64,000 nucleotides of DNA from NCBI GenBank assembly GCA_002633005.1, contig NMRA01000546.1, forward strand, positions 178,106 to 242,105, read 5' to 3'. The notes beneath the pieces are model-generated. The model worked only from the letters and a program-made list of their open reading frames with translations, was not told the origin of the DNA and did not search any database. The position numbers were made by a program, and so were the translations under genes. The stretch is from Phoronis australis (lineage: Eukaryota > Animalia > Phoronida). Positions within the stretch are counted from its first letter, which is position 1. Each line of letters opens with the position of its first letter. This document shows, one piece after another, positions 4,061 to 63,941 of this stretch.

Positions 4061-4064
4061 ATCG

Positions 4065-7704: not shown

Positions 7705-7800
7705 GACAGCACAGCACTTCACCTGGCAGCAGAGAGGGGCAGGACGGAGGTGGTGAGGGTGCTGGTGCAGGGTGGGGCCGATGTAGACGTGCGAGACAAG
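7705..7800 (+). CDS. Ankyrin-repeat exon 1 (DSTALHLAAERGRTEVVRVLVQGGADVDVRDK)
   Basis: tttctgcag acceptor, AAG|GTAATA donor, 96 nt, phase 0-0, matches the ANK consensus TxLHxAAxxG...GADV. Confidence 0.93.
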
Positions 7801-10800
7801 GTAATAGAAACTACTTGAGCCGACATTAGAATTAAGACAATGTTATCTTTATTACAAAAGCAGTAGACTATGTGAAATTTTACTAAATATTTGGTGTATA
7901 AATACACTTTTCATATCTCATGATTTCAAAAAGTATTTTTCAATCTGTACCGTGTACATGCATCTTACGAAACATTGAGGTTTGAATTGTGTCAACAATA
8001 TATTTATTGACTTAACGTTGATACTTTTCTATTCTTAATGACAATCGTCCATTCAACATTACAATTTTATATTAAACACGAAGCCAGAAAATCGGTGAAG
8101 AAATACAACATGGCTGGATCGCTGTCAAGTTATGGAGGAACTCTGTAATTTCTGGCAATCGACGTCTACAACATGTTCTGTTGTTACAGCAACACTTGAT
8201 TCTTGAAATCATTACAAATATTTTAGCATCTTAGAGGGGTCAGTAATGTTTCATTGATGTCATCTTACAAGTTCACTTTCCCCCGTGTATGTTAATTAGC
8301 TCTAAACGTTGATCGTCCATTCACACATCTCCATTATATATTACATAGGATGGCGTGACACCGCTGCACAGGGCAGCAGAGGAGGGTCATACAGACATAG
8401 TGAAGCTGTTGTTGGCCAACAAGGCCAGTGTAGATGTACGTGATAAGGTAAGTAATGACACACAGGTTGTTTAGTTGAACTAGTTGTTAACAAACACGAT
8501 GATTAAAACTGTTTAGGAACACATTTCGTTGATATTTTTCACAATTTATTGTCCAAAAACAATGACAAGTTCAATGTCGTCTGCTTTTCTTGGTGAAGAA
8601 CCAAAGCTGCGTAGAGTTGTAACATGTTCTGTAACGTTTTAAAATGTGTAACAATTGATTCTTGAAATCATTACAAATATTGTAGCGTCTTAGAGGGGTC
8701 AGTAATGTTTCATTTATGTCATCTTACAAGTTCACTTTCCCCCGTGTATGTTTATTAGCTCTAAACGTTGATCGTCCATTCAAACATCTCCATTATATAT
8801 TACATAGGGGGGCGAGACACCGCTGTACATGGCAGCACGGTGTGGTCATACAGACATAGTGAAGCTGCTGTTGGCCAACAAGGCCAGTGTAGATATACGT
8901 GATGAGTGGGTAAGTAATGACACACAGGTTGTTTAGTTGAACTAGTTGTTTACACAACGATGATGAACCCACAACATGTGACTCGGCTGAATCATTCAAT
9001 GATTTAATTAATCGTGATTTATGATTTCATTTTAAACATTGACATTTTTGTTGCATTCCACCGCACGTGACGTGACGTGCACGCGACTTTAACTAATTAT
9101 AAACAGTTTTTAGTTCACCTAGACTTGCACAGTGACTTGGTTCTTTGCTTGCATTTCCACAGCACTCATTAAATGAATGTCGATATGTTGTAATGTATAA
9201 GATCAAGTTGTTATATTTAAAACACTATTTCTTTCTACATCAGATCAGAACAACAGCTAAAAAATCCCGCGCAAGTTATGTCTGAATTTAAATGTCAGGT
9301 TTTAGTCTGTCCTGTTGAGTCACTCACTTTATCAGTATTGCAACTGATGTTGAAGTTTAAACTGGAAAAGTATAAAACTCGACCTGTTCACCCACCCACA
9401 TCACTATGTATGATGCTGATCAACATTATCTATTTTTGTTCACTTACTGTAGTTTGGTAACACACCGCTGCACGCGGCGTCAGCAGGTGGACATACAGAG
9501 ATAGTGAAACTGCTGTGCATGGAAAGCGGCTGCGACGTCAATACCGTCAACGAGGTATTGCAAGAGTGTTGCACTCTTTGAATAGTTGAGACTGCAATTA
9601 ATGTGTTTTAAATGTAATATGAGTTCGTAAAACTATTCATTCGTAATAAATATCTTGTCAAAAATGATCTCTCTCCTACGTACAATGTAATAATTCGGCA
9701 CACAATAAAAACAGACCAAACGCGCTTTCAACGGCAGACAACAGCCACAGGTTCAGATTTTCTCACTGTTTTAATTATAAAACAAGCAGGTTTTTAATCG
9801 GAATGAGATGCGCATTTAGTAAATCTCTCTGAAGGTTTTAACCTCGCTTGGTTTAATGTCGCCATTATTTAGAAATCCATTTATCCATGTGTTTTAGCCC
9901 CATGGCTTAACTGTACATGTATTTCAACGCCGCCACATAACCGAGTTTGTTCCTGCCATGGTCGGATTTACTATTCTATGATGTTGAAATCTAGGGCGTG
10001 ACTGAGGCAAATTCCCGGGCAGTCCGTCGAAAGCACAAATCCTTTTATCACGGTGCCAAGCCGAGCCCTCTGAACCTAGAAAACGAGCTGTGATCCACAA
10101 TAAATGTAAATCCAAAGTTTGTGTATACATGTGCAGGTTCTTTAAATCGTGTATACACTGAAGCTGGTTTGTTTACGGTTTGTGCGTGAATGTTGTTGTC
10201 GGAAACAGTACCGTGTTTTTTACCTGTCGTCTGCTTCACATGTTACAAAATATGGCATCGTGCTTCATCTCTTTGATTTCTCGTCTTCTTGCTATGTCAG
10301 CAAGTTTTATTGTTTGGTTGCGGAAACTTTTAAAGTTATAAGGATGTATTTCATCATTTCAATGCGGGGCTTGTGTTGTCGTACGTGATTTCTTTTTGAA
10401 ACATCTTGATTAGGAGTGGACGTGATTTTTGTTGGTGACCACGTTATCAAAAGTTTCGTGTGTCAAACATGCAATTATCAATCCAAATATCTCATTGACC
10501 ACTTTCGAAATGTATTACAGGAACTTAAAAATGATGTAGGAACTTACAGTGTATCCGAGGTCGACAGCATTGGAGAATGAATACTCGGGATGTACGGAAC
10601 CGATTTTCAGTTTGGTGAGCAGTGCTCACAAGATACACGGAGTTTGAGGATTAATTCATTCAACAAAATATTCCATCAAAAAGAACGACTTCCTGCTTCA
10701 TAACCACTTCTTTGCATATTTAATTTCAGTTATTAAACCGAATTGTCATTTCTTTCTTTCTTAGCTATGAATGTGTTGGTTAACCCCAGTTTCATTCAAA

Positions 10801-16800: not shown

Positions 16801-19800
16801 GTACATGTATGCGAGGATTCAAAATAGTTTTGAAATCTTAAAATAGGCGATCGAACATAACAAGAAAGCTTTAATTTTGTTACTTTACAGAAAAGGATTA
16901 GAAGCACAACGAGTCACATTATTTCCCTTTGACCTTGACGATAACGCTGCCAATAACATATGCATAAACTCACAAAATGCATTATGGTTGAATAAAAAAT
17001 CTATAAAGTAAGTCCAGTTATACATAACTGCAAGCTCGAATTCTGAAATTTCAATGTGTGGGTCTGGTTGAAATTTAGTTTTCTAATTTTCTCGAAGTCG
17101 GTTGATCGTGTCCCAACGCATCTCAGTTCAACGAATTTTATAAAAAACAACAATAGGTGTATCGGGCCGGAAGGAGACAAGTGCGTCCATACAGTGTATA
17201 TCACGAAACCCGAACAAATCAGACAACAAAGTAGTTAGTCATAAAAAAGAGATATATTGAAATGCTATGGGATAGATGCTGTGAAATGAGGTTAGAAAAA
17301 CTGATCTTATAAGTACAATCGACTACCTGTGAAATTGGCGTTGTTGAATAACTTTTCTTACGCTTGTCTTTCGGGAAAGTCCCCGAACAGCACACGCCTA
17401 GATGTGCATATGGATGTCTGAATATTCTCGCATTATGGATACCAATGTTTTTTTAGTTTTTGCCCACAACGGGTATTTGCGGAAGGTTCGTAGACATTTT
17501 CATAAAAAACAAAGGAAACCGAGTATTTCACACGCAAGAAAGCACAAAAATCAGTTCAGATGTTTTTTGCATCTGTCACAGTTTCAATGGCGAATTGCTG
17601 ACTAGCATATGCGCGTACTCTGTTCAATCACATGACTACATCACATCAAGGGAAGTTATATCTGAGTTTAAACGTCAGATTTTAGTCTCGTCCTGTTGAG
17701 TCGCACTATTCATCAATATTGCAACTGATGTTGAAGTTTGAACTGAAAAAGTATAAAACTCGACGACCTGTTCACCCACCCACATAGCTATGTATAATGC
17801 TGATCAAAATTCTCTATTTTTGTTCACTTACCGTAGAGGGGTAACACACCGCTGCACAAAGCATCAGCAGGTGGACATACAGACGTAGTGGAACTACTAT
17901 GCATGGAAAGCGGATGCGACGTCAATGTCGTCAACAAGGTATTGCAAGAGTGCTGTACTTCTTGATTAGTTAAGACTGCAATAAATGTTTTTTAAATGGA
18001 CTATGAGTTTGAAGTATTGTGAATTCGAAATAAATACAGTGTATGTCGTCAAAAATTTTCTGTCTCCTGCGTAGAGTTATACAAACAGTCACTTCATTAC
18101 TGCATGAACTTTCCCAGAACACTCAGTGGTTCAAAGCAGCTTGTGTAATCGCAATAATTCGGCACGCCATAAAATCAGACCAAATGAATGGCAGGCAACA
18201 GCCACATATTTAGATTTTCTCACCTTAGTAATTATAAAATATGCAAGTTTTTAATCCTGTCACTGCAAGAAATCAGACGTACGTTTAGGAAGTCTTTCAA
18301 AGGAAAATCTGAAGGTTTTAGTCACGATTGCTATAAGATGACGAATATTTAGCAATCAATTTTTCCATGTGTTGTAACCTAGTGGCTTAATTTCAAACCT
18401 ATCACACTGTGTGTGTTCCATAGTCGGATTTATAATTCTATGTTGTAATGTAGGTCGTGAGTGAGGTAGTGTCCAACCCGTCGAAACACAAGTCAATTTT
18501 ACGGTGCTAAGCACAACACCGTAACCGTATTAAAAGAGCCGTGATATTTTTTGATCCACAGTACATGTAAATCCAAAGTCTCCGTGCACTTTAAACTGTG
18601 TGTACACTGAAGCTGGTTTGTTTATGATTGCTGCGTGAATTTAGTTGTTGGAAACACAGTAACGTGTTTTTTTTACCTGTCATCAACTTCATTTGTCTCA
18701 AAGCTAAGGTATCGTGTTTTATATCGTTGAAATATATAGATTATTACATGGCGAAGTCGTTATCCCCCGTTATCTAGAGCCCGAGTGGATTTTGGAGAAT
18801 TATCGCCCCAGGGATCGGATACACTAGTGCAAGGTTTACTTGTCGAACTTTTTGCCAATCTGAGGTAGGCCAATGTTACCCTATAACGTGATCGAACATA
18901 ATTACATGGACATTGCATAGGCGGATTTAGGGGGCCCCAGGGGGCCCGCCACCCCCCTTGGCTGCCGGAAAAAAATAAAACAGCAAGAGCGTTCGGAAAT
19001 GTTGAGTTGATTAATTAACACCGGTAATTAACATTATACGGCGGAAACAAGATTTTAATGTGTGAAGTTTTAGTGTGTTTGGGGAGAGGGGCTAAGACTC
19101 AATTTCAAGTGTCAAATTCGGAACACGGCTCAATCGTAACGAAACTATGTCTAAGTATATTCTCTCCCGCGATATCCCCTGGCGACCGCCAGTGGTGTTG
19201 CGCACTACGACTCCGTTTCCGTCGTCTGCTTCACTGTGCAATGAAGAAAATTACTTCAGTTTTTTAAAGAAAATGGAATCTGAGTGACGATGAAAAAACA
19301 CAAGCTGGTGGTAAGATGTGAATTGTAATCGAAGCCTCAGTGAATCACTCAGAAACTCATAATTATCTCTTTGTCAAACCTTAACTTAAGTTGATTTCCA
19401 AAGCAGTCGCGTCATTAAAGCCAACACAAAAGCGGATTTGGTCTTTTGGTCAATTGAAGACTAATTTAAATACAACAATTTTGTTACGAACTGATTGCAC
19501 AAAGTATAAAAAGGTAATAAGCATTACAAAAAGAAGTAGGTTTCGGGCGTAAACGCTGTGGACCATAAACAGGTAGGTCTCTTATAATCAACTTTTACGT
19601 GAAGTCGTGGTGTAGTGGTAAAGTGCGCTCGCTCTTTCCGCCAGATCGTGAGTTCGAGTCTGTGATATTAGTAGTATTTTTTTCCTTTTTCTTTGCCTTT
19701 TTTTCTTGGATAATATTTCAGGAATCAAGGAAAATGCTAGATTTTTAGAGGAAAAAACAGAAATATTTTCCTGGGCGGGAGGGGGGTTCGCCTCCCTCCT

Positions 19801-22800
19801 GACCTCTCCCCTTTTGTTGCTACGCGCATCTGATCGTGCCCTGCACGAATGTTTTCAGACAACATATTGGGCCCCCCTTGTGATATCCTTGATCCGCCAC
19901 TGCATTATGATGTGGACCTAAAATGGCGATTGTAGAAGGTAAAGGTTGAACACTCGTCCGCTTAACGCCTGGATTAGGATGCAAAACATTTGGACACATG
20001 TGAAACCCTGGACACAGAACCCGAACTCCATATAACGAGACACATAGAACCCGGGACAAAAAGAACCCGGGATGAACAGCTACATTAAATCCGTGAATTA
20101 GGTTTACCTATCCGAATTAAATCTACCTTTTTGCAAATAGGTGTACACGTTGACTGTATTAGGGAGCTGTATAAAGAGTGAAAAAACATTATTGTCCGCA
20201 TCTGCGGCTTTTTGAAAAGTTATTCTCAAAGCCTGGAAATGCTATGACCAATGAAATGCCAACTTGTCAAGATGGGGCTGACAATCCTAATGTATCGAAT
20301 ATCAGAACCGTTTTATTTTAAGTGTAGATGAAATATTAGATTATTCAGTGATGGAAGTGACAATCATAATTTATCGAATATACACACTCAACTTGCACAA
20401 AAATCAAGTCCAGTTAGACAGAGTATTCATATTTTTATTTTTTGTTTTTGTATTCAAAAGACAGCAGAGAGCGCCATGGCATCTTCAGACAATGTTTCCT
20501 ATTGCTTAACAAATCCATGAGATCTTCAGACAATGTTTCCTATTGGTTAACAAATCCATGAGATCTTCAGACAATGTTTCCTATTGGTTAACAAGCATAT
20601 CCTAAATCTGCATCTTCTTCTTTTATGAACAGGAGGAAAACGGAAATATTTCGTGATTTAAATTTAATTTCAAATTTGGAGGAGGTTGACAGAAATGTGG
20701 CAGTTGCTTATGAAATGCATTTGTATTTCAAAGTATCACGGTTCAATTTCTGAATTATTCACTATTAATACATGCTATTAAGCGCGTTCGCAAATCACCC
20801 TGCTTTGCACACCTCAACTGCATGGTCCATATACTATTCTGGTCTTAAAGTAGTATGTGTATTCGATTAAAGTAAAACAGCGGACATACTAGCTGACTAT
20901 CTAAGAGGATGGTCTATGCAAGTTGTTTTGAAATTAAATGGTTTACTATCATGTTATCTAAATAATGTAGTAGCCTAAATGAATATTTTATGAGGTCTTA
21001 ATATAAGTCACATAAAGAATGACGTAGTCATCTGCACATAAGTTTTATGAAAATCATGATCAGTGCAAAATGGCAAACTTTTGCGGAAATAGCTGAGCCA
21101 CTGTTTTGAGGCGTCAATCAATTTTTTCATTTTTAAGATTCCAAAAACATTGCATTTTAGGTTTGACATTACGCTTAAAAAGTGATTTGATGGAAGGGAA
21201 GTAGACTTCACCAGTGTTGACAATTGCCCTTAAATTGACTAGGACGATTTTTGGACTCGTACCTACATGTAAGTGGTTAGAGTGGTTGTACAAAGTCGCT
21301 AATCTCCATACTATAGGAAAAAGCCCATTCCAGTTAAATCAAAACGTAAAACTTTTTTATAAGATCTCACATGTCATAATTGCTTGGGTTCAACAATTCT
21401 ACCGCCGTGTTTTCCTCTTGCTGTGTCGTATCAAGCAGTTATTTTTTTCTATTTTACTCCTATTTTAGCAGTAGCCCATCACAAATATAAGTGTGTCTAT
21501 GTTTACAGGACAATAAAACTGCTTTCGACGTTTGCGGGGAACGCTGTAGTAATGACAACGATGATGTTGAGAGAACGAAGACTATCCTTAAGGTACCGAA
21601 TAAACGACAGTGGGTCAAAAACGTGTCAATACTGTGCATTGGTAACGATAGACTATTATCATCTGGTCATACATTCATGAGGTGGANTTTCACATTACAG
21701 CTGCTGCGAACTGAGTTACAAGCACTAGAATTACCATCTACCTTACACTCAGTAGCCTTACTTTCAGCATTTGAAACACTTTCGTTAACAGGAGGTTCTG
21801 TCCGTGTGAAACCAGGATCATGCAACCATTAACACTGCAAACCACCTTGACTCTGCAATACTTAGAGATGTGACCCTGTTTCAGACAAACAAAACATCTT
21901 CTTGCCTGACGAATGGTTTTCTTCCTACCTTCAAGAGAGTCATGAACAAACCTAGAACAAGTCAATAGTTCATGATCGGTTGTCTGACACAAGGAACAGA
22001 ATTTCTTATCTACAGCATTACCCTGTGACTGTGTGGCAAAAGACACTTTATCATCACGTGACTGAGTTTTAGCAACTTGCTTTTCAGATCTGTACTTAGA
22101 TTTTGAACCAACAATCCGTCCATACAGAGTTTTAGCTACTCTAGCCTTTGACTCAATGAAATCAGTTAAATCTGAGAACTTTGGCTCTACACTTTGTTTA
22201 TCCATGATACCACTAGCATGCTCTGCCCACTTAGCTTGCATATGAAATGGCAAACGCTTCACAGTTTTGATCAAAGTGTCGGAGCACTTCAAATCTGACT
22301 CATAATTCATTTGTTCCAGAGTGAGCATGCCTCTCCTCATGAGCACAGCTAAGTCTGAGAGAGCCACACTGTTAGAACCATCAATGACTGGACCTTGGGT
22401 CACCTGTTTAATAAACGCATGAGCTATAACATGTTGCTGACCAAAATTATCATACAACATCGCTTTTGCTTTTCTGTAGGCTAGCTCTGAGTTACCAAAA
22501 ATAGAGCAGTTTTCAATACACTGTCTAGGTTTCCCTTTACACTGTTGCAAAAGATACATTAGCTTAGACTGACTACCACTAACTCTAGATTCAATATTAG
22601 CCTCGAAATTTCGAATAAAATACCAATACTCAGTAGGATTGCCATCAAATGTAAGCAGTTCTTTTTTCGGCATTTCAAACCCTTCTCTCAAAGTTTCTGC
22701 GAGCTGCTTCATAACTTCCGGTAAACCAGGATACGACCACGGCGCCTCTTGCGGTAAACTAGGGAACCGCGCTGCACCAGCATTCGGTTCTGCACGGGGT

Positions 22801-49800: not shown

Positions 49801-52800
49801 GTCCGGCAATAAAAATCAAGCGCAGGTGCCAGATACTAAAATTTGGGTGAGGGACTTATTGTTTTGAGCTCAAGAGTTACATGTATGTTTGTTTAGAACT
49901 CAACGCCCGTGGATGTTTTATCGATTTACATGTTTAACTGTCACCAGGGCCAATGTTTGTTTTCTGTTTATAGTGAACTTACATTTATAACGTGCCCTGT
50001 TGTAGCCCCGTATTTTGATCGCGGTTTTGCACTTGGGCGATGAAGAAAGGTTTTCTCTAAGTTATCATTAGATTGGGTCCATTAGCTAAAATGCTCTTTC
50101 TTTTTGTCAAGAGTCAAGTCACTTGTTGCTGTCTGCGCTTCATGTGTAAACAAATGGATGTCACTGAACATTTGGACAGTTAATGGAATTAAAATTTGAA
50201 TAAAAAGCAGTATAAGGACAGTGACACACTCAGATGGTACCAATACATTTTCAAAAACACCATGGCCGTCATTCAGGAATCGTTCCTCACCGGATGAATA
50301 AGGTATTCCAGTCACGGGAATAAACAACAATGTTAGATGACAATTTGTAATTTCGGCCGAGGTACAACATCGTGTTAATTAAATTTGTACTTTATTTCGA
50401 AACAGAGTGAAACATTACATCATGTTACACACTGCTTAATTTTGTGTTCTTTGTTTCCAAGTGTTTCATTTTGGAATAAGCACACAAGATGGACTTAAAC
50501 CGAAAGTCAAAAATTTCAAGGCTACCAATGGCAGGATGGCTCGTGGTTTAAGTATCACCGGCTACGCAAGTTTTTTGCGAAAATTTGCCAAAACAAAACA
50601 CACGCTCTTAAGACAATAGAAATATTTATGACTGAAAGCTCCAGACAACTGTCATACACACCTCCGTGTAATCATCTTCAACTTAAAGAGTGACGTGTAG
50701 CAAACACTAGCAGGAAAAATTACCTTCAATAAACTTTAGTTGTGTGGTACAGTACATTATAGACTTATAATTAAATGGAACTATGTCTAAGACAGCATTG
50801 GGTCATGTGCAAACTAACGGAAACAACTATCCGTACATGTATTGTTAACAGAGCTTAGAAATGTGTCAATTTATTCTCAGGAATACGGAGAGGGCCAAGA
50901 GAACTTCATCAACAGCTGCTACTGAAGGTTGCTGACAGTGTCATTGATCCTGACTTTAAAAGACTAAAGGGGTTGTGTAAAGCGTGGATAGAGTAAGAAA
51001 GACAACGTTGCATAATTGTACAAATTATACATGTATATGCACAGTGACCGCAAGTAATCACGAGTGTATCATACTACATTATCAAGTTATCCTGAGCACT
51101 GCTTCTGAAGCTGTTGATTCCTACAATAGAGCCAAAGAGCTCTACTCCGATCACAAAATGAACATGGATTGTGACTCCATTTTCGTCAGAGGCATCAAAA
51201 CAAAAATTGTCGCCTTTGCTCTAAACGAAATGCCCTAAGGTAATTGTAGTATTATCGGCCACAACCACGAGATTTTCGTTTCAAGATGAGTTACCGAAAA
51301 ACAAGCGTAAATGGCACTACTGGCGCCGTCTATTGTTGAACGTGTTCCAGGTTTATGTAGGTTCAATGGAGGTGACTGGGTTAACATTGTTCAGGAGCGT
51401 GTTAATTGTCATGTATCAAATATCTTCAAAATTGTGCTTTTATCTCAGTAATTGTAAATCTTTTTAAAAGAACAAAGCCTGTAGAGTTTGATCTGTGACC
51501 TTATACTATCTGTAGCAAAACAACAGTGTTCATATTTCCTCCATAAAAATGTTCAATATCTCAAAATGACAGACACTTTTTTCTAAATTATAGTTTCGTT
51601 TTCGCGTCATACAACAGAAAAATAATAAATCTTCTCTTTATATCCCTCATGCAGAAGTGGAAATGTTCAAAAACCATTAAGAATAGCATTTTGGAGAACC
51701 GTCCATAAAGCATAATGTCTTTCACATGAATCCCAACAGCCATTTGTAAGATGTGATGTTCCGAAGCAAATTTGGCCATTTTCGTGGCTCCAACACAACC
51801 ACCAAATTTGATTTTCACAGCGCTTGAGTTTTTTACATCAGCCTGCACGTTTCATGTTTTTGGAAATCTCATTTCTCCTTTCATTCTCCAACGCTTTAAA
51901 TAATCTTGATTGGGACATGAAAGATAGTCCATTAGTTATATGCTGGTGTCAGGGAGGACACAACTCTAAAGTAATTGGAAGTAGTCGATTGTGGATTTGT
52001 CTGTGAATATAATTAACACTTATTCACGGAAGGTTTTTCCAGTCAATGTAGCGGACTTGTAGAGTCGTGTTGCTTCAATCTCCAAAAACTCTGAACGGAT
52101 CTTTATGAAATTTTGTAGACATGTTTATATCATAGATTGTACGGCATGACCGAATTTTTGAACGGATGCAATTACCCGACGCTGTGCCACTTAAGGCGAA
52201 TTTATTTTTTACGTTTCCCTTTTTACCTTCCGAGTTTTGACTGAATTTTCATAAAAGTTTGGAAATAGGTATTGGTTAAGAAGACGACGCCTTGTTCTAT
52301 TTTTACTGGGATTTGATTGACGTTCATGTATTCTGCACCACCTAGTCGCTGTTTTCATTGTTTTTGGCGTCCACTTTCTCTCTACCAAGCTACTGGATTG
52401 ACATACATGTATACACATGATTTGCATATTCATATACGTTAATGACGATTGCGAAGATATACGTGGTCCTTCTGGGACGCACACGGCATACCATGGTTTT
52501 TGGATGGCTCTTTACAACGGTGGCACAACCTTGTGGTATTTTGTTTTCTTCTTTATGTCCGTAACTTCAGCCGTACTGCTGCAATACGTTTGACACGCCA
52601 CATGTTCCAAACTCGTTATGGAAAGTCTTATCAACCGGGTTCTAAACGTTGTACTCAAATCATATTCGATTTCTTGTTGCTTTTTCCGTTTTTTCTTTCG
52701 TGTGAACTCGAACTAACTGTGCATTATTCTTTGCTGAAGATCATTATGATTTAAGCAAATGTTGCTTCAGTCCAAGTTCTCACCTGGTGGACCTCTATTT

Positions 52801-55800
52801 CGATCTAAAACCTCGTGGAATGACAACTCTAGACTTCAAATTCAGACTCAAACTTCAAACTTCAGTGATAACCTCATTAAGTGCAATCTCGGATTACATA
52901 GTTGACCACGTAACACATTATGTATTTGAGAATGTTGACCACGTGACACATTATGTATTTGAGAATGTTGACCACCTGAGACATTATGTATTTGAGAATG
53001 TTGACCACCTGAGACATTATGTAATTGAGAATGTTGAACACGTGACACATTATGTATTTGAGAATGTTGTCCATTGTAGACGTCATGTTTTTGAGAATAG
53101 AAAGTTGTCCACCCTAGACACATATTCGCGCATAGAACAATAGACACGCATCTTGTGTTTCACAAAAGTGGAATAGAAAATGCTGAATTAATTCCGAGTT
53201 GATGTCAATTAAAAATATTAGACCACAGACCCTAGCTACAACCTAGAGTGGCTAACATCGCTTCAATCAAGGTGAATGTTTTTTATCAATATGTAGTGTT
53301 AAGTCTTACAAAGTCTTGTGTGTGACACTCTGTCCTAGAGTAGTCACATCACAGGATGGATAATAGGGGCGTTAAAAAGGCGATAAACTAAAGGTGTTGA
53401 AAATCTTCATCAATGTTTGAATTAGTATTTGAGATCTATTGATTCGTCTTGCTTTGTGTCGTGCAGTCTTTTTATTCTCGTGTGAGCAGGCGTGATTTTA
53501 GATTCATGTGATCATTAATGTTTTGTTGATTTTCAGACCAGCAATACTGCAGAATATAACAAACACTCAGGAACTTCTTGAACAGCTTCAGCGGCAAGAG
53601 ATAATTAATGTTGGAGATTACAGTGAATTAACCCGCATGCTGCACCAGCTCCATCTGGAGGAACTTGCAGAACTAGTGGAAAAACTGTCAAGTGAAATAA
53701 AGGGACTAGGTATGAAAGACAATGTTGACCAATTTTATGTGAATACTCAACAACCACTTGGGTATGAATATTATTTAGTAAACAGGTGGATTTCACAGTG
53801 AATTGCAGGGGTCATTAGTGTGTTATTACACCACTTGGTGGCGCTCAAGAAAGGCTCTTGAAACTGATTCCAATGTAATATTTTCCATCTTTACGAATCC
53901 CGGAAGTGCAGCTGGTTATTCGATAAAATACGAACAAAATCAGCAGTTTGACCCCAAATCCATGGTTTGCATGCAATTACTAAGAAGTGAAAAAAGATGC
54001 GTTGAAACCGACAAAATGCTCTGCATTAAAGGAGTCAGGTTAAAAGTGAATGTGGACAAGCAAAATATTTTTAAAATCCAAATTATCTGTACGTCTCATG
54101 AATTTTCCGAAAAAATTCCCGCTTAATTTCCCGTTAGTCAGCAGTATGTGTTTAAGAAAACCCAAGGCAGAGCAAAACGTGAGTTAAAGTGTGAAAAGAC
54201 AACAGCTGTATACTCAGAACAAGCAAATGCCTGTCGTAGCCGTCACGTGCAACTTAAACTGTCCATTCAACCCAGCATTCGCAAATTATGTTTGAAGTTG
54301 GCGCGGGTAGGAATTAGATCGTGACTCAAAAATATTGAGGACCAACAAGATCACCTATAACTCGAACTTTACTTCAAATCAAACGACAGTGCCATCCCTG
54401 ATGGTGAGACATACATGTACTAAAGGAAGGTTTCAGTTGTAATTTGAATGACGATACTTTATAATGAATTAGAATCCATTCAGATTCAGATTTTTTTCTA
54501 ATATTCTATGGCTTGTCTGGATCAAATTGCATAGAATCACTGTTTTCAAAAAGGGAGAGCTCTCAAACAGGCGTGGTCCGTGCCCAATTACTTTTAGTCT
54601 TTCCCTGTCAATGACCAACGACGTTTAACACAATGAATGAATTGTTGGCTGCCAAATAGACTGCCTGTATACAGCATAATGCGTTTTGTGAGAGAAGGTC
54701 ATGCCAAATTAGCCGTTTATTATTTTTCAGTTCTCGTGTATTTCACAACCTCACAAATCCACTAGGAATTTGTTTTACAGGAATTATTTACACTAATCCG
54801 TTGTGTCATGGCTAACAATTTCCAGGAGTTAGTCTTGCAAAAACTGTTCTTGTGTAAACACAGTTTAACCGATCTTAAAACGCAATAGGTGTTTTTTTAC
54901 TATTTTCAAGTAAGTATGGTTTCACATTTATTGATGTGACAATGTTTGTTCCGTTTGTAGCGAGTCAAATCTTGACAACCTTTGACACAAAAAAGTGTTC
55001 AGGGATCTCTTTTTTATTTGAGTTACATGTAAATGCCTCACTATATTCGAAGCACTGGCATTACGCAGGATAGGCATAGCAGGTAACTAAAGCAATTCCA
55101 AGCGTTTAAATAACCAATAGTTCATCGGCTAAAATCAAGCTTCTAGAAGTGTTTATCAATATCACAAAAATGGCTCCCAAGTGACGCAAAATATCTCAAA
55201 CGTCTTGAAAATCGGAGTGTGTCATCATCTTGCTAACAGACAGATATTTACCTCATTGTCCGGAGTTGCAGGGGCAAACATACATGTGTAAAACTTCAAA
55301 TCGCCATTAAAATGCACCTCTACCGCTGAAATCCGCCAGTGTGATGTTCGTAGGAATACATATACCAAAGTTTCACAAGGACGGTTTGAGTTTAGTGTTG
55401 CTAAGGTATTAAACAACTAGTTTTGTATGAAACCAAAAGCCTCAAAATAGCTCAATTTTGTACTGCACTGAAAAATGCCCAATATGGAAACACATGTTGA
55501 TTAGCAACAAAATGCAACGTGATACCGATTTGAATATGTGTCATAAGTGAAGAAGTTCCAAAAAAATGTCACGTGTAGAGCAGGCGTTACTTCTACTTCG
55601 GGTGTTAACAAGGCCAGGACTTTGCTCCTATAACTGCAGGAAAAGAATGAATATTTTGAAAGAGAAATTTGTTGAGTATTATAGGAGTTTTGAGGTGCAC
55701 TTTGGACCTAGAAATTTCAATTTCATCAACTCACTCATTCTTAATGCACGGCAGAAGATGCTACACACCATTGGCACTGGTGACAACGGTAAGTCCATGG

Positions 55801-58800: not shown

Positions 58801-61800
58801 CACAATTTTTCGAATACTGGAAAAACTATGGTAAATAACAACGGGGATAAATTACATTACATTAAGGCGAACGAAGACAAGCCGATTTACTTCTCGTTGA
58901 AAGCAACGTGTTACCCCGTATATACATTACGGTAAATTTTCAAATGATTGTTCCTTTGAAATGACCCTGGTATAAGAAAAACAAACAATCTGGTTATCTT
59001 GAAATCACAATTTGTGCGAGAAAATCAAGAAATTAAAAAAGAGTGAATATCTGTCAGTTTACTGTAGTTGCCTGCTGTGTCTTTCAGCCATAGGTAACAG
59101 TTCATTACAAACCCGCCCTCTTTTGTCAGCATTCATTGTCATCTGCTTTAAGGTAACATTTCAAGAATTAGAATTACATTGGTTGCAAACAACTTGTAGA
59201 ACATTCCTAATATGTTCGTTGTGGTTTGGTGCATACTTGTACCATGTGTGTCTGCTGTTTCGTATACTTCGTAAGTTCAACACTTATCACACTGTCTTGA
59301 TGTTTTGTGGTGGAAATGTTTAGGCGTACATGTACATATTACTAGTGTCAATCTAATGTTCAGGGTATATAGGGGAGCCTCAGTTAATGGAAATACGAGT
59401 CTTAGCTCGAAGGTAGAAAGCTCAACGTAATTATCTTGGCAGTAATCAGATGGATTTAACAGTGACGCGTCGAGGCGTTGCTATAGCTTCTGGGGTCACT
59501 ACTGTCGCATTACACCGCTTGGTGGTAGTCAACAAAGTCTTCTGAAACTTATTCCAATGGAGACTTGTCCATCTTTTACGGTAACCAAATGTTCGTCCGG
59601 CTATTTGAGAAAAACGAACAAAATCATCAGTTTGTTCACAAAGCCGCGGTTTGCATACAATTACCTTGAAAGATATTGTGTTCAAACAGCCAAACTACTC
59701 CACAATTACACTAATCAGGTGTAAAGAAGATGTCGACTATCAAAGTATTTTAAAAACCCGCATTTCCTTAATTTTCCACTAAGTTTCCAGCTTGCAAGCA
59801 GTGAATGTTTAGGAAAAGTGAAGGCAGAGCAAAACCTGGGTTTAAGTGTTAAAAGCTAATATTCATATACCCAGAGCAGGCAAGTGCTAGTCGTAGCCAC
59901 TTCACGCACTGTCCATCCAACCATGCATGCGCAAATTATTATTGAAGTTGACGCAGGCAGGAATTAAACCGTGACTCAAAAATATTGAAGACCACCAGAA
60001 CCACCTAATACTCAAACTTTATTTCAAATCAAAAGACAGTGCCACTCCTGATGTTGAGACTTATATCAGCCTAAAATTTAAATTAGATAAGGAAACAGCG
60101 ACATACTAAATAAAGGAAGGTTCCAGTTGTGATTTTAATGACGATACTGTAAAATAATTATAATCCATACAGACCCACATTGTTTCTAATAAATCTGATG
60201 TTCTCTGGCTTGTCTGAATTCAATTGCATAGAATCACTTTTTCCACAAATGGAAAACTCTCAAACAGACGTGGTCCACGCACCATTAGTTTAAAAACTTC
60301 CTTTTCAATGACCAAATATGTTTAACACAATGAATGAACTTTGGCTGCCAAATAGATTGCCTGTATGAAGCTTATTGCGTTTTGTGAGAAAAGGTCTTGC
60401 CAAATTACCCATACATTATTTTTCAGTTCTAGTGAATTTAAAAATCTCAAAAATTCCCCAGGAGCCTGTTTCCCAGGAATTACTTCAACTTCTCTGTTAT
60501 AACATGACTAGTATTTTCTTGCAAAAATTGTTCTTGGTAAAAAATTGTCTATGTTGAGGGATTATGCATGCAGTTTTTTGATGAGGACAGCATTGACGAA
60601 ATATTTCATTGAGGCTATAATTATAATGCTTATGAATTTTCAACTGTTACGGTTAAAAAAGTAATATTTTATATGTTTCTAAGACCACGTGTAGGCATCA
60701 AAGATAACGTCTTACAGGGTGTACGTGATTTTGGCAGCTATGACAATTGTGTTCGTTCTTGTGACTGCAAATGGAGGCCCTGAGTCATTTTTGTGCAGGC
60801 ACGCCCCTAAATGTAGCCGTGAGTTTGCTCAACGGTAAGTCTGACACGTGAGTTAAAGCTTGTATAAGTAAACTTTTAGTGAGACCTAACATCATAACGA
60901 ACATTAACCAATAAAACTAGTAGAAATACAACGATAAGCGTCGGTACTAAAATATATTAAAATATTCAACACCCTTCGAGCGATGCGCTCTCTGACAAGG
61001 GTATGACACAGACTACCGGAAATGTGTACACCTGTAGATGGATGTAAATAAAATCGCACAGACGACCAAATGATGGTATACAATTGACAGCATTAACAAT
61101 TCCGGTCATAGTTTTACTATTTCAGTAATTTATGTTTTTATCCGTCGATAACTGCACAGCATTCCAGCATCTATTTGATTTAATTATTATTATCAATCAG
61201 CAAGCGGTGACCATGACCCAGGGGAGCACGATCAAATGCCCATTTTTTCATTGAGGTTACGACGGTTTTGTATCAAACAGACGTACACAATAATTTCAAG
61301 CAAAATTGCCACCTAATATGAAACTCGGACGGATATGTATGGTGAAGATTTATATCTGGAATCCTTTTGATTTTGTGTCAGAAATGTGAATTTTTAAGTT
61401 TTGTATTTTGGAATTTGTGTGATCTTATTATTACTGGACACCTTTTTTCCAGTAAAGCTTGATTTTACATGCGAAACGTGTTCCGTCCATTTCCTTGCTT
61501 AAAACAAATAATTTTACTCCATGTCTGACTTAATTGTTTGTGTTTAATAGTTTTACCCTGTTCCTAAATCTCTCACAACCTAGAACTGCGCAATGTAAAT
61601 TCCTAAATATCTTTAACTGCGACAAATTGGCTACGCGACGTAAACTCCGGCACCCTTAAGTATACCTTTAAAATCTGGACAACTTTTCACATACGGTCTT
61701 TTTGACTCTCTGTTAGGTATATTAGGTATTCCCTATAGGGGGCATCGTTATGTGTGATGGGAGAGTACTAGTTGGTCGGCGAGGGTGTTGAGACAATTCA

Positions 61801-63941
61801 GTTCACGTCTGCTTATTAAGCAAGAAGGGCACGCAACAGTTCACTCCTCAGACAACGCTTGAACAATCGGTTGAGATAATAATTGAAATTCCTAAGCCCA
61901 TATTGGAAGCATATAGACAATGGTGAAGCTAAACATTACAATGTAGAAACACGGTGTCATAATTACATGTACAGCTTCTAACGCCAAGACTAAAGTACCT
62001 CTCCGCTAACTTGTCTATTACACCTCTCGTAGCCGAAGGACCGACAAAACTGAAATTTGCAATCTTGGACTGAACTACTTCCCATTCACCTACCTGAAAG
62101 ACAGGGACGAGACAGCCTAAATAGTTTGATAACCATAACATGAGTTGTTTTATTGACCATGTGTATTTTCCAACGGTTTATATTACAGTAACATATATGT
62201 TCAGGCTCGACTGTTGAGAAACATAATCCACTTATTTTACAGGTCATGCCTATTTTACTTTAGATTACCTACATGTTCATGTAAGCAGATTTATATGAAA
62301 CCAAAAGCCTCAAAATAACTCAAATTTGCGCAGCACTGGAAAAAATACCAAATGTGGAAAACATGTTGGTTAGCAACAAGATGCCACGTGATAATGATGT
62401 GTGCTTACTTGGCTCTGAAGACGTGTCATACGAGAAATATTTCCATAAAATGTCACCTGTAGAGCAGGCGTTACTTCTACTTCGGATATTGACGAGGACA
62501 GGACTTGGCTCCTATAACTGCAGAAAGAGATGGTTCATTTGAGAGATAAATTCATTGAGTATTATAGTAGCGTGTGGCAGCCTTTTGGCCTGGAAATATG
62601 TTTCAATAGCTCACTCATTCTTAGTGCACGGCAAAAGATGCCACCAACCATTGGCACTGGTGACAACGTTAACTCCATGAACTCGAAATTACGGGTGAAA
62701 AACAATCGTAAAACCAAGCAGAAAAGTTGAATACCAGCTAGAAATTGGGTCACTCTCACCTGCCGCAATGGTGTTGCGACGCCTTTTTTCGAATATCACT
62801 TTTTACTACCCCAAATACGAAAAGACGAGTGAAAATACATCTTCTGTATGCGGTGCAGTGTAGGTGAGGTGGAACTGTAGATAATACACGCCCCTAGTCT
62901 TCACCAATTTCACTCACATCAAGGATGAAATAAAAAGAGATGGTCACACTTGTCACCAAGTATAGTGCATAATGAAACAGGTCACGTGACCATGATCTTC
63001 ATGATACACATAAGCAAGATGATCCTGTATCAAGCAAACTACATAATCACATACACAGACTTGTCACTAAGTTCAACATGACCGTAAGAGAGTGGCTATA
63101 CATATTGCAAGTGATAATTTCCTGTTTTGTGGGATTACATTATGTCATGAACTTTATATAGAGTAACAGCACTCGTGCGTTACTACGCATTTTTTTCTTA
63201 CAGACATAATTATAATGAGACCACTTCAACATTCACGTTTTTGATATTTAATTTACTTTTACGGTCTCCCCTTTTATGTTGCCCTCTACAGTAAATTCTG
63301 TATTACAGAGCCCCATGTCAGTGCTGTCATTGAAAGACAGAGGACAAAAACTCGGAACGCTGGCATGTATGCATCTTGTATTAACATGGTATTTTTTCAA
63401 ACACTGAAAATCAGATGGTGAATATTCATGAAGTTGAATTGAATTTCAGATAAAAATAACCATGGCAAGACTAATTACAGAACAACTGTTGCCATGGATA
63501 CAGTATCATACCGTACCTCTTTAATTTATTGTTTTGTTGCTCTTTCATGCTGCTTCAAAGTGGGTCACATTAAAAAATCGTGTGATGTAGAAATGAAAAG
63601 CTGTGTGAAAAAAACATGGACGATCCATATTCAATGCGCGTTGAATATGGAGAAGTAGTTCTTCTATATCAAACCTCACAATAATAACAGTAATAACAGT
63701 AATTCATGACCAAACCATAACGCGTATATTTCTCAGTTTTCTTTAGTTAGGCGTTTTCATCCAGAGGAAAATAATTCGTGCCAAACCAAATCTTATTTTG
63801 TTGTCATTCTTTGTCACCTTTTCATTGCTTTTCCATTTATAAATACTGCTGTTATCTTTATTTGCTTGTTCCCATTAGGACTACAGAGGGAAGCAGAAGG
63901 CTCATTACAGTTCCCATTAGGAAAAGTGGCGGAGAAAGAAG
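7705..63941 (+). CDS. Spliced gene (partial): ankyrin repeats - linker - ZU5/UPA-like - linker - death effector domain; putative innate-immune or cell-death adaptor/receptor
   Basis: About 21 AG/GT-bounded exons with a consistent phase chain: all phase 0 from 7705 to 29190; 29992-30046 (0>1); 40105-40934 (1>0); 44578-44638 (0>1); 47387-47502 (1>0); 47986-48046 (0>1); 50881-50992 (1>2); 53537-53709 (2>1); 63879-63941 (1>1). No in-frame stops in this chain. Joining all exons into one transcript is an inference. Confidence 0.7.
8349..8447 (+). CDS. Ankyrin-repeat exon 2 (DGVTPLHRAAEEGHTDIVKLLLANKASVDVRDK)
   Basis: ttacatag acceptor, AAG|GTAAGT donor, 99 nt = one 33-aa ANK repeat. Confidence 0.95.
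8808..8909 (+). CDS. Ankyrin-repeat exon 3 (GGETPLYMAARCGHTDIVKLLLANKASVDIRDEW)
   Basis: Tandem copy of exon 2 with flanking intron (459-bp offset); TGG|GTAAGT donor; 102 nt. Confidence 0.93.
9453..9554 (+). CDS. Ankyrin-repeat exon 4 (FGNTPLHAASAGGHTEIVKLLCMESGCDVNTVNE)
   Basis: cttactgtag acceptor, GAG|GTATTG donor, 102 nt, GxTPLH motif. Confidence 0.93.
12405..12478. repeat. 38-bp direct duplication (tagcctatacagtacacattaattgacatttggc x2)
   Basis: Read directly. Confidence 0.9.
13695..14130. repeat. Degenerate ~75-80-bp tandem array (tttcccaatg...ttgcgttgtcgacgcaca..cgttcccga)
   Basis: About 6 diverged units visible; explains the spurious ORFs here. Confidence 0.6.
15540..15705. repeat. 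~65-bp tandem repeat, ~2.5 copies
   Basis: gggatg(a/g)tcaactcgagttgaaggcaatg repeated. Confidence 0.8.
17837..17938 (+). CDS. Ankyrin-repeat exon 5 (RGNTPLHKASAGGHTDVVELLCMESGCDVNVVNK), paralog of exon 4
   Basis: cttaccgtag acceptor, AAG|GTATTG donor; lies within a ~1-kb block duplicated from 9270-10270. Confidence 0.92.
18916..19902. mobile_element. hAT-like non-autonomous element with GC-rich imperfect TIRs
   Basis: CATAGGCGGATTTAGGGGGCCC at left and GGGCCCCCC...GATCCGCCACTG at right; no clean TSD found. Confidence 0.55.
19603..19665 (+). repeat. tRNA-derived SINE-like head / pseudo-tRNA
   Basis: A-box-like GTGGTGTAGTGGTAAA and B-box GAGTTCGAGTC at tRNA spacing; acceptor stem does not pair. 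Confidence 0.55.
20474..20595. repeat. 41-bp minisatellite, 3 copies
   Basis: catgagatcttcagacaatgtttcctattggttaacaaatc x3. Confidence 0.95.
21509..21592 (+). CDS. Terminal/capping ankyrin-like exon A (DNKTAFDVCGERCSNDNDDVERTKTILK)
   Basis: gtttacag acceptor, AAG|GTACC donor, 84 nt; the xTAFD motif is typical of the last half-repeat of ANK arrays. Confidence 0.8.
21738..23123 (-). mobile_element. gag: BEL/Pao LTR retrotransposon gag ORF (DUF1759-type)
   Basis: 461-aa ORF with a coiled-coil N-terminus, LLTFDGNPTEYWYFIRNFE...KLMYLLQQCKG, KRLPFHMQAKW, and three Cys/His knuckles (CSLCQTTDHELLTC, CFVCLKQGHISKYC, CSVNGC, the last broken); bounded by N joins. Confidence 0.93.
23164..23312 (-). mobile_element. 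Possible part of the 5' LTR of the BEL/Pao element
   Basis: Ends ...gtatcttaca (TGTAAGATAC on the minus strand) upstream of gag, after an N join. Confidence 0.35.
24671..25190. repeat. 140-bp tandem repeat, ~3.7 copies
   Basis: Unit starts at 24671, 24811, 24951 and 25091 (aaacgc/aaacac..tggaactggaacgacaaaggcag). Confidence 0.97.
24671..25297 (+). CDS. Four tandem linker exons: 24671-24772, 24811-24912, 24951-25052 (102 nt each) and 25091-25297
   Basis: Each begins after a (t/c)tccag or cccag acceptor with K(R/H)(M/L)ELERQRQ. The first three end AAA|GTGAGT and the last ends GAA|GTAAGT. All are phase 0. Confidence 0.65.
27732..27809 (+). CDS. Terminal/capping ankyrin-like exon B (ENETAFDVCEGHSGIGYVKRIRNILE), paralog of 21509-21592
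   Basis: gtttacag acceptor, GAG|GTACC donor, 78 nt; upstream intron is homologous to 21360-21508. Confidence 0.78.
28260..28472 (+). CDS. Linker exon (KDMEVEQQRQGCGVEGIPP...ETDDAIE), paralog of 25091-25297
   Basis: cacttccag acceptor, GAA|GTAAGT donor, 213 nt open in phase 0. Confidence 0.78.
29125..29190 (+). CDS. Small linker exon (AAESFLLRRLTPLSHLSDRILK)
   Basis: taactcgtag acceptor, AAG|GTACCA donor, 66 nt, open in phase 0. Confidence 0.55.
29425..29490 (+). pseudogene. Duplicated copy of exon 29125-29190 that has lost its donor site (pseudo-exon)
   Basis: 300-bp offset duplication; acceptor gtag|gcggctgaa retained but ttaaag|gtacc has become ttaatgatgcc. Confidence 0.55.
29992..30046 (+). 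CDS. Linker exon (EESTSGTPTAFLLTSHAT), phase 0>1
   Basis: ttttgtttcgtttcag acceptor, CAG|GTAAGA donor; supplies the phase-1 end needed by the ZU5 exon. Confidence 0.75.
33772..34958 (-). mobile_element. Helentron-associated (HINE/DINE-like) non-autonomous element, copy 1
   Basis: Minus-strand 3' end: palindrome tattgtca..tgacaata then CTAGTT. Other end: stem-loop ctctgc..gcagag next to an (AAG/AAT)n microsatellite. Internal tgacctttgacct repeats. Confidence 0.7.
35413..35773 (-). repeat. Partial near-identical third copy of the HINE-like element
   Basis: Matches ~34417-34783 almost base for base; starts right after N at 35412. Confidence 0.85.
35777..36448 (-). mobile_element. LTR retrotransposon 3' end: ~300-bp LTR (35777-36076), polypurine tract and short internal part
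   Basis: TGTAATAG...TTTACTACA termini followed immediately by ttcctcccttccct (PPT on the minus strand); interrupts the HINE copy; truncated at N 36449. Confidence 0.7.
40105..40934 (+). CDS. ZU5-like domain followed by UPA-like beta-rich region
   Basis: Longest non-TE ORF (302 codons). tttttatccttatag acceptor, CAT|GTAAGT donor. IINGTTGGVIRWKEVEFRVPSNAV resembles the ZU5 start (GGxL..VxLxIPxGA). FSEPVEVRV resembles FxxPVxLxIPH, and CKTFSIF sits where ZU5 proteins have HFSxF. Confidence 0.75.
42155..42473. repeat. 159-bp tandem duplication, 2 copies
   Basis: aatgtaacaa..ctagataaaccataagcagtttg...caataggaagcttt twice. Confidence 0.95.
42539..43170 (+). pseudogene. Possible decayed or alternative exon pair 42539-42610 and 43071-43170 (...KHVIARLY/RVEDRELGDVVVMKVYQLSKENKAVLLRSRKVQ)
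   Basis: Both have strong acceptors and donors (tttcacag/GTAAGG; tttttcatacag/GTGAGT) and join in phase 2, but the first has stops in all frames. Confidence 0.35.
44578..44638 (+). CDS. S/T/P-rich linker exon (IQKDTTTESPSTPACLPSKL), phase 0>1
   Basis: tatttccag acceptor, C|GTAAGT donor, 61 nt; paralog at 47986. Confidence 0.75.
45072..46332 (-). mobile_element. Helentron-associated (HINE/DINE-like) element, copy 2
   Basis: Collinear with 33772-34958; perfect ttattgtcac-ggc-gtgacaataa hairpin; (AAGAAGAAT)n near the other end. Confidence 0.72.
47387..47502 (+). CDS. Linker exon (VHQQANRIEQPLLKQDDREEFRVGVAMSQIGQVQFARS), phase 1>0
   Basis: ctctttttcag acceptor, AGC|GTTAGT donor, 116 nt; bridges the phases of both neighbours. 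Confidence 0.7.
47986..48046 (+). CDS. Linker exon (NQKDTTAESPSTCAYPSEEQ), paralog of 44578-44638
   Basis: tatttccag acceptor, A|GTAAGT donor, same 61-nt length. Confidence 0.75.
48525..49664. mobile_element. Possible decayed hAT-like MITE
   Basis: CAGTGGCGGATC...AAGGGGG left end; degenerate gggggg..cccc..gtatccacctctag right end. Confidence 0.35.
50881..50992 (+). CDS. Death effector domain, N-terminal exon (IRRGPRELHQQLLLKVADSVIDPDFKRLKGLCKAWI)
   Basis: ttattctcag acceptor, GA|GTAAGA donor; LLxxV.D.+...D+..LKxLC pattern of DED helices 1-2. Confidence 0.82.
52901..53110. repeat. 33-bp minisatellite, ~6 copies, in the intron splitting the DED
   Basis: gttgaccacgtgacacattatgtatttgagaat repeated. 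Confidence 0.97.
53537..53709 (+). CDS. Death effector domain, C-terminal exon (EPAILQNITNTQELLEQLQRQEIINVGDYSELTRMLHQLHLEELAELVEKL)
   Basis: gattttcag acceptor, G|GTATGA donor; phase 2 matches the previous exon; L..I....ELL..L....I...D+..L..LL pattern of DED helices 3-6. Confidence 0.85.
57921..57979 (+). CDS. Possible small exon (ITDEKDIPLPSKRARKTNV) with a basic NLS-like patch
   Basis: ggtttattag acceptor and a possible AG|GCAAGT (GC) donor; phase does not fit directly after the DED exon. Confidence 0.3.
61711..62140. mobile_element. Possible solo LTR
   Basis: TGTTAGGT...ACCATAACA termini; starts exactly where homology to 32630-33052 stops; no TSD seen. Confidence 0.3.
63879..63941 (+). 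CDS. Exon (LQREAEGSLQFPLGKVAEKE), phase 1>1; gene continues beyond the window
   Basis: Long pyrimidine tract + cattag acceptor, AAG|GTAAAG donor, 63 nt. Confidence 0.65.

What the first reader, a model, noticed from the sequence alone, without database searches (positions are those of the whole stretch)
7705..63941. Hidden ~56-kb gene with an ankyrin-ZU5/UPA-like-DED architecture
Seen: a phase-consistent chain of exons that the ORF track almost entirely misses, encoding at least 5 ANK repeats, a ZU5/UPA-like module and a death effector domain. Known: ZU5-UPA modules normally end in a death domain (ankyrins ANK-ZU5-ZU5-UPA-DD, UNC5, PIDD LRR-ZU5-ZU5-UPA-DD), while DEDs recruit caspase-8/FADD-type partners. 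Inference: this may be a lineage-specific PIDD-like sensor using an ankyrin recognition array and signalling through a DED.
Basis: partly seen in the sequence, partly recalled or inferred. Interest (0 to 1): 0.85.

Follow-up and report, generated by a model that had tools for sequence, protein, structure and literature searches.

The report
Fast-evolving ankyrin–ZU5–death-effector sensor gene
This invertebrate DNA holds an expressed, spliced gene that likely joins a fast-diversifying ankyrin binding array to a distant ZU5-like module and a remodelled death-effector-like domain, which would make it a new variant of the mix-and-match intracellular immune sensors of marine animals, although the reads seen do not link its two ends.

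Summary
The exon chain is real. Five single-repeat ankyrin exons pass Pfam. The downstream exons carry sense-strand RNA reads, and 8 of 22 modelled junctions were listed; 7 lay outside the laid stretches (all ankyrin exons) and 7 inside were not listed, including the ZU5-to-DED link. One gene is likely (about 0.7), not shown. ZU5 and DED are top Pfam hits below cut-off (E 0.043 and 0.0021); UPA has no sequence or fold support; the ZU5 exon has no hit in 1.84 billion proteins. New here: ANK2 and ANK3 are recent duplicates (introns 12/237 different) that differ at all six most variable repeat positions (10/18 bases, p 7e-8), a sign of diversifying selection. Against the PIDD reading: the self-cleavage histidine is missing, and the DED lacks its FL and RxDL motifs, so caspase-8/FADD recruitment is doubtful. 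Shuffled ZU5 modules are already catalogued in marine invertebrates; this combination was not found in my searches. The scan had not noted this architecture elsewhere, only related ankyrin-cassette and DED genes.

The parts
7705..7800 (+). Ankyrin exon 1 (phase 0/0; upstream exon and start codon not found)
8349..8447 (+). Ankyrin exon 2; recent duplicate of exon 3 with its flanking intron
   Evidence: Pfam E 2.2e-11; duplication; divergence test
8808..8909 (+). Ankyrin exon 3
   Evidence: Pfam E 5.6e-11
9453..9554 (+). Ankyrin exon 4; older duplicate of exon 5
   Evidence: Pfam E 9.9e-11
17837..17938 (+). Ankyrin exon 5
   Evidence: Pfam E 1.7e-10
21509..21592 (+). Cap exon A: half-repeat resembling the C-terminal cap of an ankyrin array (label by eye)
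   Evidence: phase 0/0; sense depth 10 and 10 at 21514; no Pfam hit
24671..25297 (+). Linker A: three 102-nt exons separated by 38-nt GT-AG introns, then a 207-nt exon (140-nt tandem repeat)
   Evidence: tandem repeat; 4 stops if unspliced; joint 25297>27732 in 6+6 reads; the 38-nt introns were not among listed joints
27732..27809 (+). Cap exon B (duplicate of cap A)
   Evidence: joints from linker A 6+6 and 12+2 reads; depth 22 and 8
28260..28472 (+). Linker B, low-complexity exon (duplicate of the last linker A exon)
   Evidence: sense depth up to 17 and 21; joint from cap B in an allelic form, 8 reads
29992..30046 (+). Optional exon, phase 0/1; may alternate with 39522-39612
   Evidence: strong splice sites; bin depth 0.9 and 1.8, sense only; no joint listed
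39522..39612 (+). Linker exon, phase 0/1
   Evidence: frame; bin depth 10 and 5.6 needs this exon as well as the next
39667..39783 (+). Linker exon, phase 1/1
   Evidence: joint to the ZU5 exon in 31+14 reads
40105..40934 (+). Large exon: ZU5-like unit (about residues 1-133, ending C-K-T-F-S at 40479-40493) followed by a beta-rich UPA-position region
   Evidence: Pfam ZU5 top hit E 0.043; ranked 2nd of 1248 frames by a small ankyrin ZU5 profile, E 0.8; depth about 30
40935..40987 (+). In-frame extension: either retained, or a 45-nt GT-AG intron plus an 8-nt micro-exon (40980-40987); needed to reach exon 43071 in frame
   Evidence: inferred, no read seen
43071..43170 (+). Exon, phase 2/0; may hold the last strands of the UPA-position domain
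   Evidence: joint to 44578 in 22+7 reads; match to ankyrin UPA end not significant
44578..48046 (+). Three spacer exons (44578-44638, 47387-47502, 47986-48046), 80 residues between the UPA position and the DED
   Evidence: joints 20+12+1 and 31+8 reads; length
50881..50992 (+). DED exon a (first helices; L-K-G-L-C where the FL motif is expected)
   Evidence: joints in 12+9 reads, out 5+5+1 reads; no Pfam hit alone
53537..53709 (+). DED exon b (remaining helices; L-H-L-E-E-L where RxDL is expected)
   Evidence: Pfam DED top hit E 0.0021; joint from exon a
60799..60834 (+). Candidate tail exon, phase 1/1
63879..63941 (+). Candidate tail exon, phase 1/1; gene end not in window

Best explanation
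The exons likely form one gene for a cytosolic, enzyme-free sensor-adaptor in which a variable ankyrin array would bind a ligand and a probably uncleaved ZU5/UPA-like module would hold a divergent death-effector-like domain until that happens. Shown: the exons, their frame, sense-strand expression of those laid, 8 junctions, and excess change at the variable positions of one duplicated ankyrin pair. Inferred: (1) one transcript from ANK to DED (about 0.7); (2) the ZU5 and UPA folds (ZU5 about 0.8, UPA about 0.6); (3) autoinhibition of the death fold by ZU5-UPA, by analogy with UNC5 and ankyrin-B; (4) release or clustering of the DED on ligand binding, recruiting lineage-specific DED partners rather than a standard caspase-8/FADD filament; (5) an immune role. 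Whole-exon duplication of single repeats and of the cap-plus-linker unit is the visible route of diversification.
For: Five Pfam-passing single-repeat exons. Stop-free chain of 1067 codons, no membrane-like stretch. Sense-strand depth of roughly 10-35 from cap A to DED b, and joints linker A>cap B, 39783>ZU5 and the whole run 43170>44578>47387>47986>50881>53537. The true DED a>b joint was counted in only 5 reads per run at depth above 30, so counts fall where alleles differ, and 18 of 33 and 31 of 46 joints were hidden. No AATAAA/ATTAAA within 800 bases after the ZU5 exon. ANK2 vs ANK3: introns 12/237, framework codons 3/78, six most variable positions, set from 231 repeats of 120 other proteins, 10/18, all six residues changed, p 7e-8. 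ZU5: top Pfam hit, 80 columns in register to an ankyrin ZU5 profile, and C-x-T-F-S at the place of the C-x-H / H-F-S end motif (passages of PMC3482391, PMC9162469). ZU5-UPA sequesters the death domain in UNC5 and ANK2 (passage of PMC9162469).
Against: Coverage fits an exon end at 40934 (X1 about 40950, X2 40934), whose donor is out of phase with 43071; the rescue by a micro-exon is unseen and its donor is weak (3.2 against 7.3). ZU5 and DED are under Pfam's cut-offs; pairwise scores against two ankyrins were reached by 79/300 and 55/300 shuffles, the UPA scores by 246/300 and 68/300. The second ankyrin pair shows no significant excess on the strict six positions (4/18 against 43/308, p 0.31). 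The DED lies 80 low-complexity residues beyond the UPA position, further than a compact ZU5-UPA-DD unit needs. Reads differ from the assembly at many fixed sites, so some may come from a paralog. No ligand, partner or immune induction was tested.
Confidence: 0.5

Rival explanations
1. Two neighbouring genes: an ANK-ZU5(-UPA) gene that stops at 40989-40991 and a separate short spacer-DED gene from 43071 on.
For: The ZU5>43071 joint was not among 15 of 33 listed joints although its neighbours had 20-30 reads; the strong donor is out of phase; unchecked notes on this genome describe short DED-only genes beside other genes.
Against: No polyadenylation hexamer near 40991 and no coverage beyond about 40950; exon 43071 has a strong acceptor and no first exon shows in 41-43 kb (bin depth at most 1.6); depths are alike on both sides; a GT-AG route keeps the frame.
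Confidence: 0.2
2. A true PIDD/FIIND-like platform: the ZU5 unit cuts itself at F|S (40488-40493) and frees a UPA-DED fragment that nucleates caspase-8/FADD filaments.
For: Phe-Ser is kept at the end of the ZU5-like unit; in CARD8 the residue before Phe tolerates change (passage of PMC3210808); caspase-10 also lacks RxDL (passage of PMC4915230).
Against: No His between exon residues 54 and 165, so neither the H-F-S nor the CARD8 His270-type position (27 residues upstream) is filled; the FL motif used in DED chains reads G-L.
Confidence: 0.12
3. A decoy or scaffold: the degenerate DED dampens DED signalling (as PEA-15 or cFLIP do) or only scaffolds, and the locus may be a relaxed, partly decaying paralog rather than a sensor.
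For: FL and RxDL both lost; a read form in X1 is 16 bases shorter at cap B>linker B (8 reads), which would shift the frame; a transcribed BEL/Pao gag remnant sits in an intron; 11 of 17 read differences checked change a residue.
Against: Relaxed constraint cannot lift change above the intron rate, yet ANK2/3 variable codons are ten times above it while framework codons are at it; the assembled chain has no stop.
Confidence: 0.18

Closest known systems
PIDD1 (LRR-ZU5-ZU5-UPA-DD; passages of PMC9162469)
   Same: Repeat array, then ZU5/UPA position, then a death fold; cytosolic, no enzyme domain.
   Different: Ankyrin repeats instead of LRRs, one ZU5-like unit, His of His-Phe-Ser replaced, DED-like instead of DD, long linkers; no detectable sequence relatives.
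Ankyrins (ANK-ZU5-ZU5-UPA-DD; P0067, P0080) and UNC5 ZU5-UPA-DD
   Same: ANK before ZU5, death fold last; autoinhibited module is the model for step 3.
   Different: Five repeats seen against 17-19 Pfam stretches, one ZU5, DED-like end, no significant similarity.
NLRP1/CARD8 FIIND (ZU5-UPA-CARD; passages of PMC3210808)
   Same: Single ZU5 plus UPA ending in a non-DD death fold; x-F-S at the ZU5 end. That paper's alignment also lists a dog protein labelled 'ded'.
   Different: No upstream catalytic His; no FIIND or CARD hit; ankyrin front end.
Shuffled ZU5 proteins of corals, sea urchin and amphioxus (supplement files 4 and 6 of PMC8195603)
   Same: ZU5(-UPA) joined to changing sensor and effector domains in marine invertebrates, including Ankyrin+ZU5+ZU5 in a coral and DED with ZU5 in one 7154-residue amphioxus model.
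   Different: No ANK+ZU5+UPA+DED row among 66 of 66 and 90 of 96 ZU5 mentions read; those lists hold only TRADD-N or GT4 proteins.
Ectocarpus exon-per-repeat ROCO and NB-ARC-TPR receptors (abstract and section 15 of PMC3341825)
   Same: One repeat per exon, exon duplication, diversifying selection on the repeats.
   Different: Ankyrin rather than LRR/TPR, no NTPase, and no inverted or silent repeat exons in the introns.

Membership tests
Ankyrin-repeat protein | Repeats passing Pfam PF00023 | tested here: met
   5 of 5 exons, 39-43.8 bits against 21.1
PIDD1 | N-terminal LRRs | tested here: not met
   ANK repeats in the exon chain; 5' end outside the window
PIDD1 | Two ZU5 domains | tested here: not met
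   one weak ZU5 stretch; the exons upstream are low-complexity
PIDD1 | His-Phe-Ser self-cleavage motif | tested here: not met
   Thr-Phe-Ser at 40485-40493; cleavage itself not tested
PIDD1 / ankyrin / UNC5 | C-terminal death domain (PF00531) | tested here: not met
   top hit is DED, Death not listed; a small ankyrin DD profile did not rank it
ZU5 domain | Pfam PF00791 at its cut-off | tested here: inconclusive
   top hit, 14.5 bits against 21, profile 7-79 of 97
ZU5 domain | ZU5 fold | tested here: inconclusive
   single-sequence model pLDDT 36; fold searches uninformative
UPA domain | Profile or fold match after the ZU5 end | tested here: inconclusive
   no Pfam hit, not ranked by a 3-sequence profile, model pLDDT 35
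FIIND (NLRP1/CARD8) | S-F|S with a catalytic His about 27 residues upstream | tested here: not met
   F-S kept, no His between residues 54 and 165
Death effector domain | Pfam PF01335 at its cut-off | tested here: inconclusive
   3' exon alone 18.7 bits against 35.9, top hit; the two exons were not scored together
Death effector domain | RxDL motif in helix 6 | tested here: not met
   L-H-L-E-E-L in that slot, placed by eye; also absent in caspase-10
Death effector domain | FL hydrophobic motif | tested here: not met
   L-K-G-L-C in that slot, placed by a recalled consensus; role of the motif
Exon-per-repeat shuffled receptors | One repeat per exon, same phase | tested here: met
Exon-per-repeat shuffled receptors | Diversifying selection on repeat surfaces | tested here: met
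   ANK2/3 p 7e-8; ANK4/5 not significant on the strict set
Exon-per-repeat shuffled receptors | Inverted or silent repeat exons in introns | tested here: not met
   five copies only, all sense and intact
Exon-per-repeat shuffled receptors | Multigene family with high turnover | not testable with these tools
   no genome held

The most novel reading that the evidence does not exclude
This is one member of an undescribed family of animal intracellular receptors that diversify by duplicating single-ankyrin exons under positive selection, like natural DARPin libraries, and signal without any NTPase through a ZU5-UPA switch to a private class of DEDs.
Probability: 0.3. Interest if true: 0.75.

Novelty: new variant of a known kind. 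Interest (0 to 1): 0.52.

Why it matters
If the single gene holds, it adds an NTPase-free route from a variable binding surface to a death fold, and its positively selected ankyrin tips give a direct handle for finding what invertebrate intracellular sensors recognise. It also shows a gene that ORF tracks and a 1.84-billion-protein search both miss. If it is two genes, or only one more shuffled ZU5 protein, it is a modest addition to a known trend.

Tried and rejected
No genome held, so no paralog count. Run search: no RNA holder listed; three raw runs came by species label; about 18-19% of each was read. Homolog searches: ZU5 exon 0 of 726 candidates, DED b 0 of 106, 0 hits in 1.84 billion representatives, 0 in PDB sequences; DED halves gave only chance PDB hits. 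The ankyrin profile search listed 120 of 1729 proteins, none with PF01335; 2 were ankyrins. Atlas look-ups with the ankyrin P0067 showed ZU5 clusters, none with DED among the rows shown; window sequences could not be read there. Both structure predictions failed (pLDDT 36 and 35); no ZU5/UPA entry among fold-search rows, which is uninformative. The complex job of the ZU5 exon with the 43072 peptide gave no answer. Rejected: short donor 40934 joined straight to 43071 (15 stops); linker A read unspliced (4 stops); exon 57921-57979 as an in-frame tail (wrong phase, weak acceptor); the LRR_5 hit of the 33-nt intron repeat as part of the gene. No Rfam hit. Paper searches for ZU5+DED+ankyrin and variants found no description of this architecture; subscription papers and InterPro were not searchable, file 4 of PMC8195603 was cut when stored and its file 13 not searched, and the Additional File 1 that PMC3482391 cites for sponge ZU5 proteins gave no text.

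Full report
Setting. 

Exons. Five phase-0 exons each encode one ankyrin repeat and pass Pfam; a six-frame profile scan found no other copy. They are followed by a half-repeat cap exon and a low-complexity linker that are duplicated as a unit (21509-25297 and 27732-28472). Linker A is a 140-nt tandem repeat made of 102-nt exons and 38-nt GT-AG introns; unspliced it has 4 stops. Then come two short exons, the large exon at 40105, exon 43071, three spacer exons, two DED exons and two candidate tail exons. The 23-exon chain has no stop over 1067 codons, but only with the donor at 40988. No start exon was found.

RNA. Three raw runs came by species label. First mates lie on the minus strand over the exons, which in most stranded libraries means plus-strand RNA. 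Of 22 junctions, 8 were listed: 25297>27732 (6+6 reads), cap B>linker B in an allelic form (8), 39783>40105 (31+14), 43170>44578 (22+7), 44638>47387 (20+12+1), 47502>47986 (31+8), 48046>50881 (12+9), 50992>53537 (5+5+1). Seven junctions lay outside the laid stretches (the five from ANK exons, the two tail ones). Seven inside were not listed, but only 15 of 33 and 15 of 46 joints were shown, crowded by repeats. Reads differ from the assembly at many fixed sites and show linker exons in other orders, so alleles or paralogs vary in structure. The open point is ZU5>43071. Coverage fits an end at the strong, out-of-phase donor 40935. The sequence offers a rescue: 40935-40979 is a 45-nt GT-AG stretch and 40980-40987 would be an 8-nt micro-exon that restores the phase. 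No read seen shows it. I put one gene at about 0.7.

Domains. ZU5 is the top Pfam hit but under cut-off (E 0.043). A profile of nine ankyrin ZU5 pieces ranked the exon 2nd of 1248 frames with 80 columns in register (E 0.8); pairwise scores were within shuffles. The unit ends in C-K-T-F-S, at the place of the C-x-H and H-F-S motifs (passages of PMC3482391 and PMC9162469). UPA rests on position alone. DED is the top hit for the 3' exon (E 0.0021, profile 33-81 of 82), and the 5' exon has the length to supply the rest; the joined domain was not scored. Its FL and RxDL slots (passages of PMC4915230; placement by eye and recalled consensus) read G-L and L-E-E-L. Sequence searches found no relatives and structure prediction failed.

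Selection on the ankyrin array. An earlier, unchecked note on a feather-star gene prompted this test. ANK2 and ANK3 differ at 12/237 intron bases and 3/78 framework bases but at 10/21 bases of seven surface codons, which I chose from recalled DARPin positions plus one added after seeing the data. The strict recalled six gave 9/18 (p 9e-7). Positions set independently by entropy in 231 repeats from 120 other proteins gave 10/18, all six residues changed (p 7e-8). That such positions form the binding face is from passages of PMC8683736 and PMC8229355; the position numbers are recalled. The older pair ANK4/5 gave p 0.03 on seven positions and p 0.31 on the strict six. One pair is a small sample, and conversion between exons cannot be excluded, though the codons between the variable ones are nearly unchanged.

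Mechanism. Most likely a cytosolic sensor-adaptor (no membrane-like stretch). The ankyrin face would bind a changing ligand; ZU5-UPA would keep the death fold masked as in UNC5 and ANK2; release or clustering would recruit DED partners. Self-cleavage is unlikely without a His but Phe-Ser is kept, so it is not excluded. All of this is inference.

Known context. ZU5-UPA ends in CARD in NLRP1/CARD8 and is fused to many domains in corals, sea urchin and amphioxus; no ANK+ZU5+UPA+DED row was among 66 of 66 and 90 of 96 ZU5 mentions in two supplement files of PMC8195603, which list only TRADD-N or GT4 proteins. Direct sensor-to-death-fold hybrids are described in amphioxus (passages of PMC2575513) and exon-per-repeat receptors in brown algae (abstract and section 15 of PMC3341825). 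Passages of PMC11874512, PMC12909245, PMC8260672 and PMC9573974 did not describe this architecture. Six searches found none in the held library; InterPro could not be searched, so database records with this architecture may exist.

Verdict. A real, expressed, fast-evolving locus; a new variant of a known kind. Observation partly confirmed, interpretation partly supported. Interest 0.52.

Noticed in passing
window 21738-23138 (-): BEL/Pao-type retrotransposon gag remnant (DUF1759, E 1.9e-6) right behind cap exon A; reads on the opposite strand at depth 13-30, possibly from other copies.
   Followed up: partly
window 24671-25090: Three 38-nt GT-AG introns inside a 140-nt tandem repeat; a 54-nt intron at 39613-39666 too. 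Very short introns seem usable in this animal; the 38-nt ones were not among listed joints.
   Followed up: partly
window 27809-28285: 8 reads in X1 join cap B to linker B in a form 16 bases shorter than the assembly, which would shift the frame and leave an ankyrin-only product; allele or paralog unknown.
   Followed up: no
window 25215-27732 and 28359/24808: Reads show an allele-specific in-frame donor near 25220 (12+2 reads) and a linker exon spliced to a further linker exon not in that order in the assembly (11+3 reads): the linker array varies.
   Followed up: partly
window 50672-53339: Opposite-strand reads at depth 5-24 in X1 and X2, none in X3, across the DED intron; includes a 33-nt tandem repeat (52901-53098) whose + frame hits LRR_5 (E 4.6e-9), probably by low complexity.
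   Followed up: partly
window 57921-57979: Exon-like stretch with a basic motif and a GC donor that is out of phase with DED b; in the DED b phase it ends in a stop and could be an alternative last coding exon.
   Followed up: partly
window 33772-34958 and 45072-46332: Two copies of a highly transcribed repeat with a 432-nt internal period.
   Followed up: no
window 3487-5201: Element with 171-nt inverted ends, a THAP-domain fragment (4391-4675, E 1.3e-4) and a telomere-like TAACCC run at its edge.
   Followed up: no
window 6091-6859: Two 345-nt copies (a third, partial, at 3289-3480) with open frames of 114-119 codons and no Pfam hit for the one scanned.
   Followed up: partly
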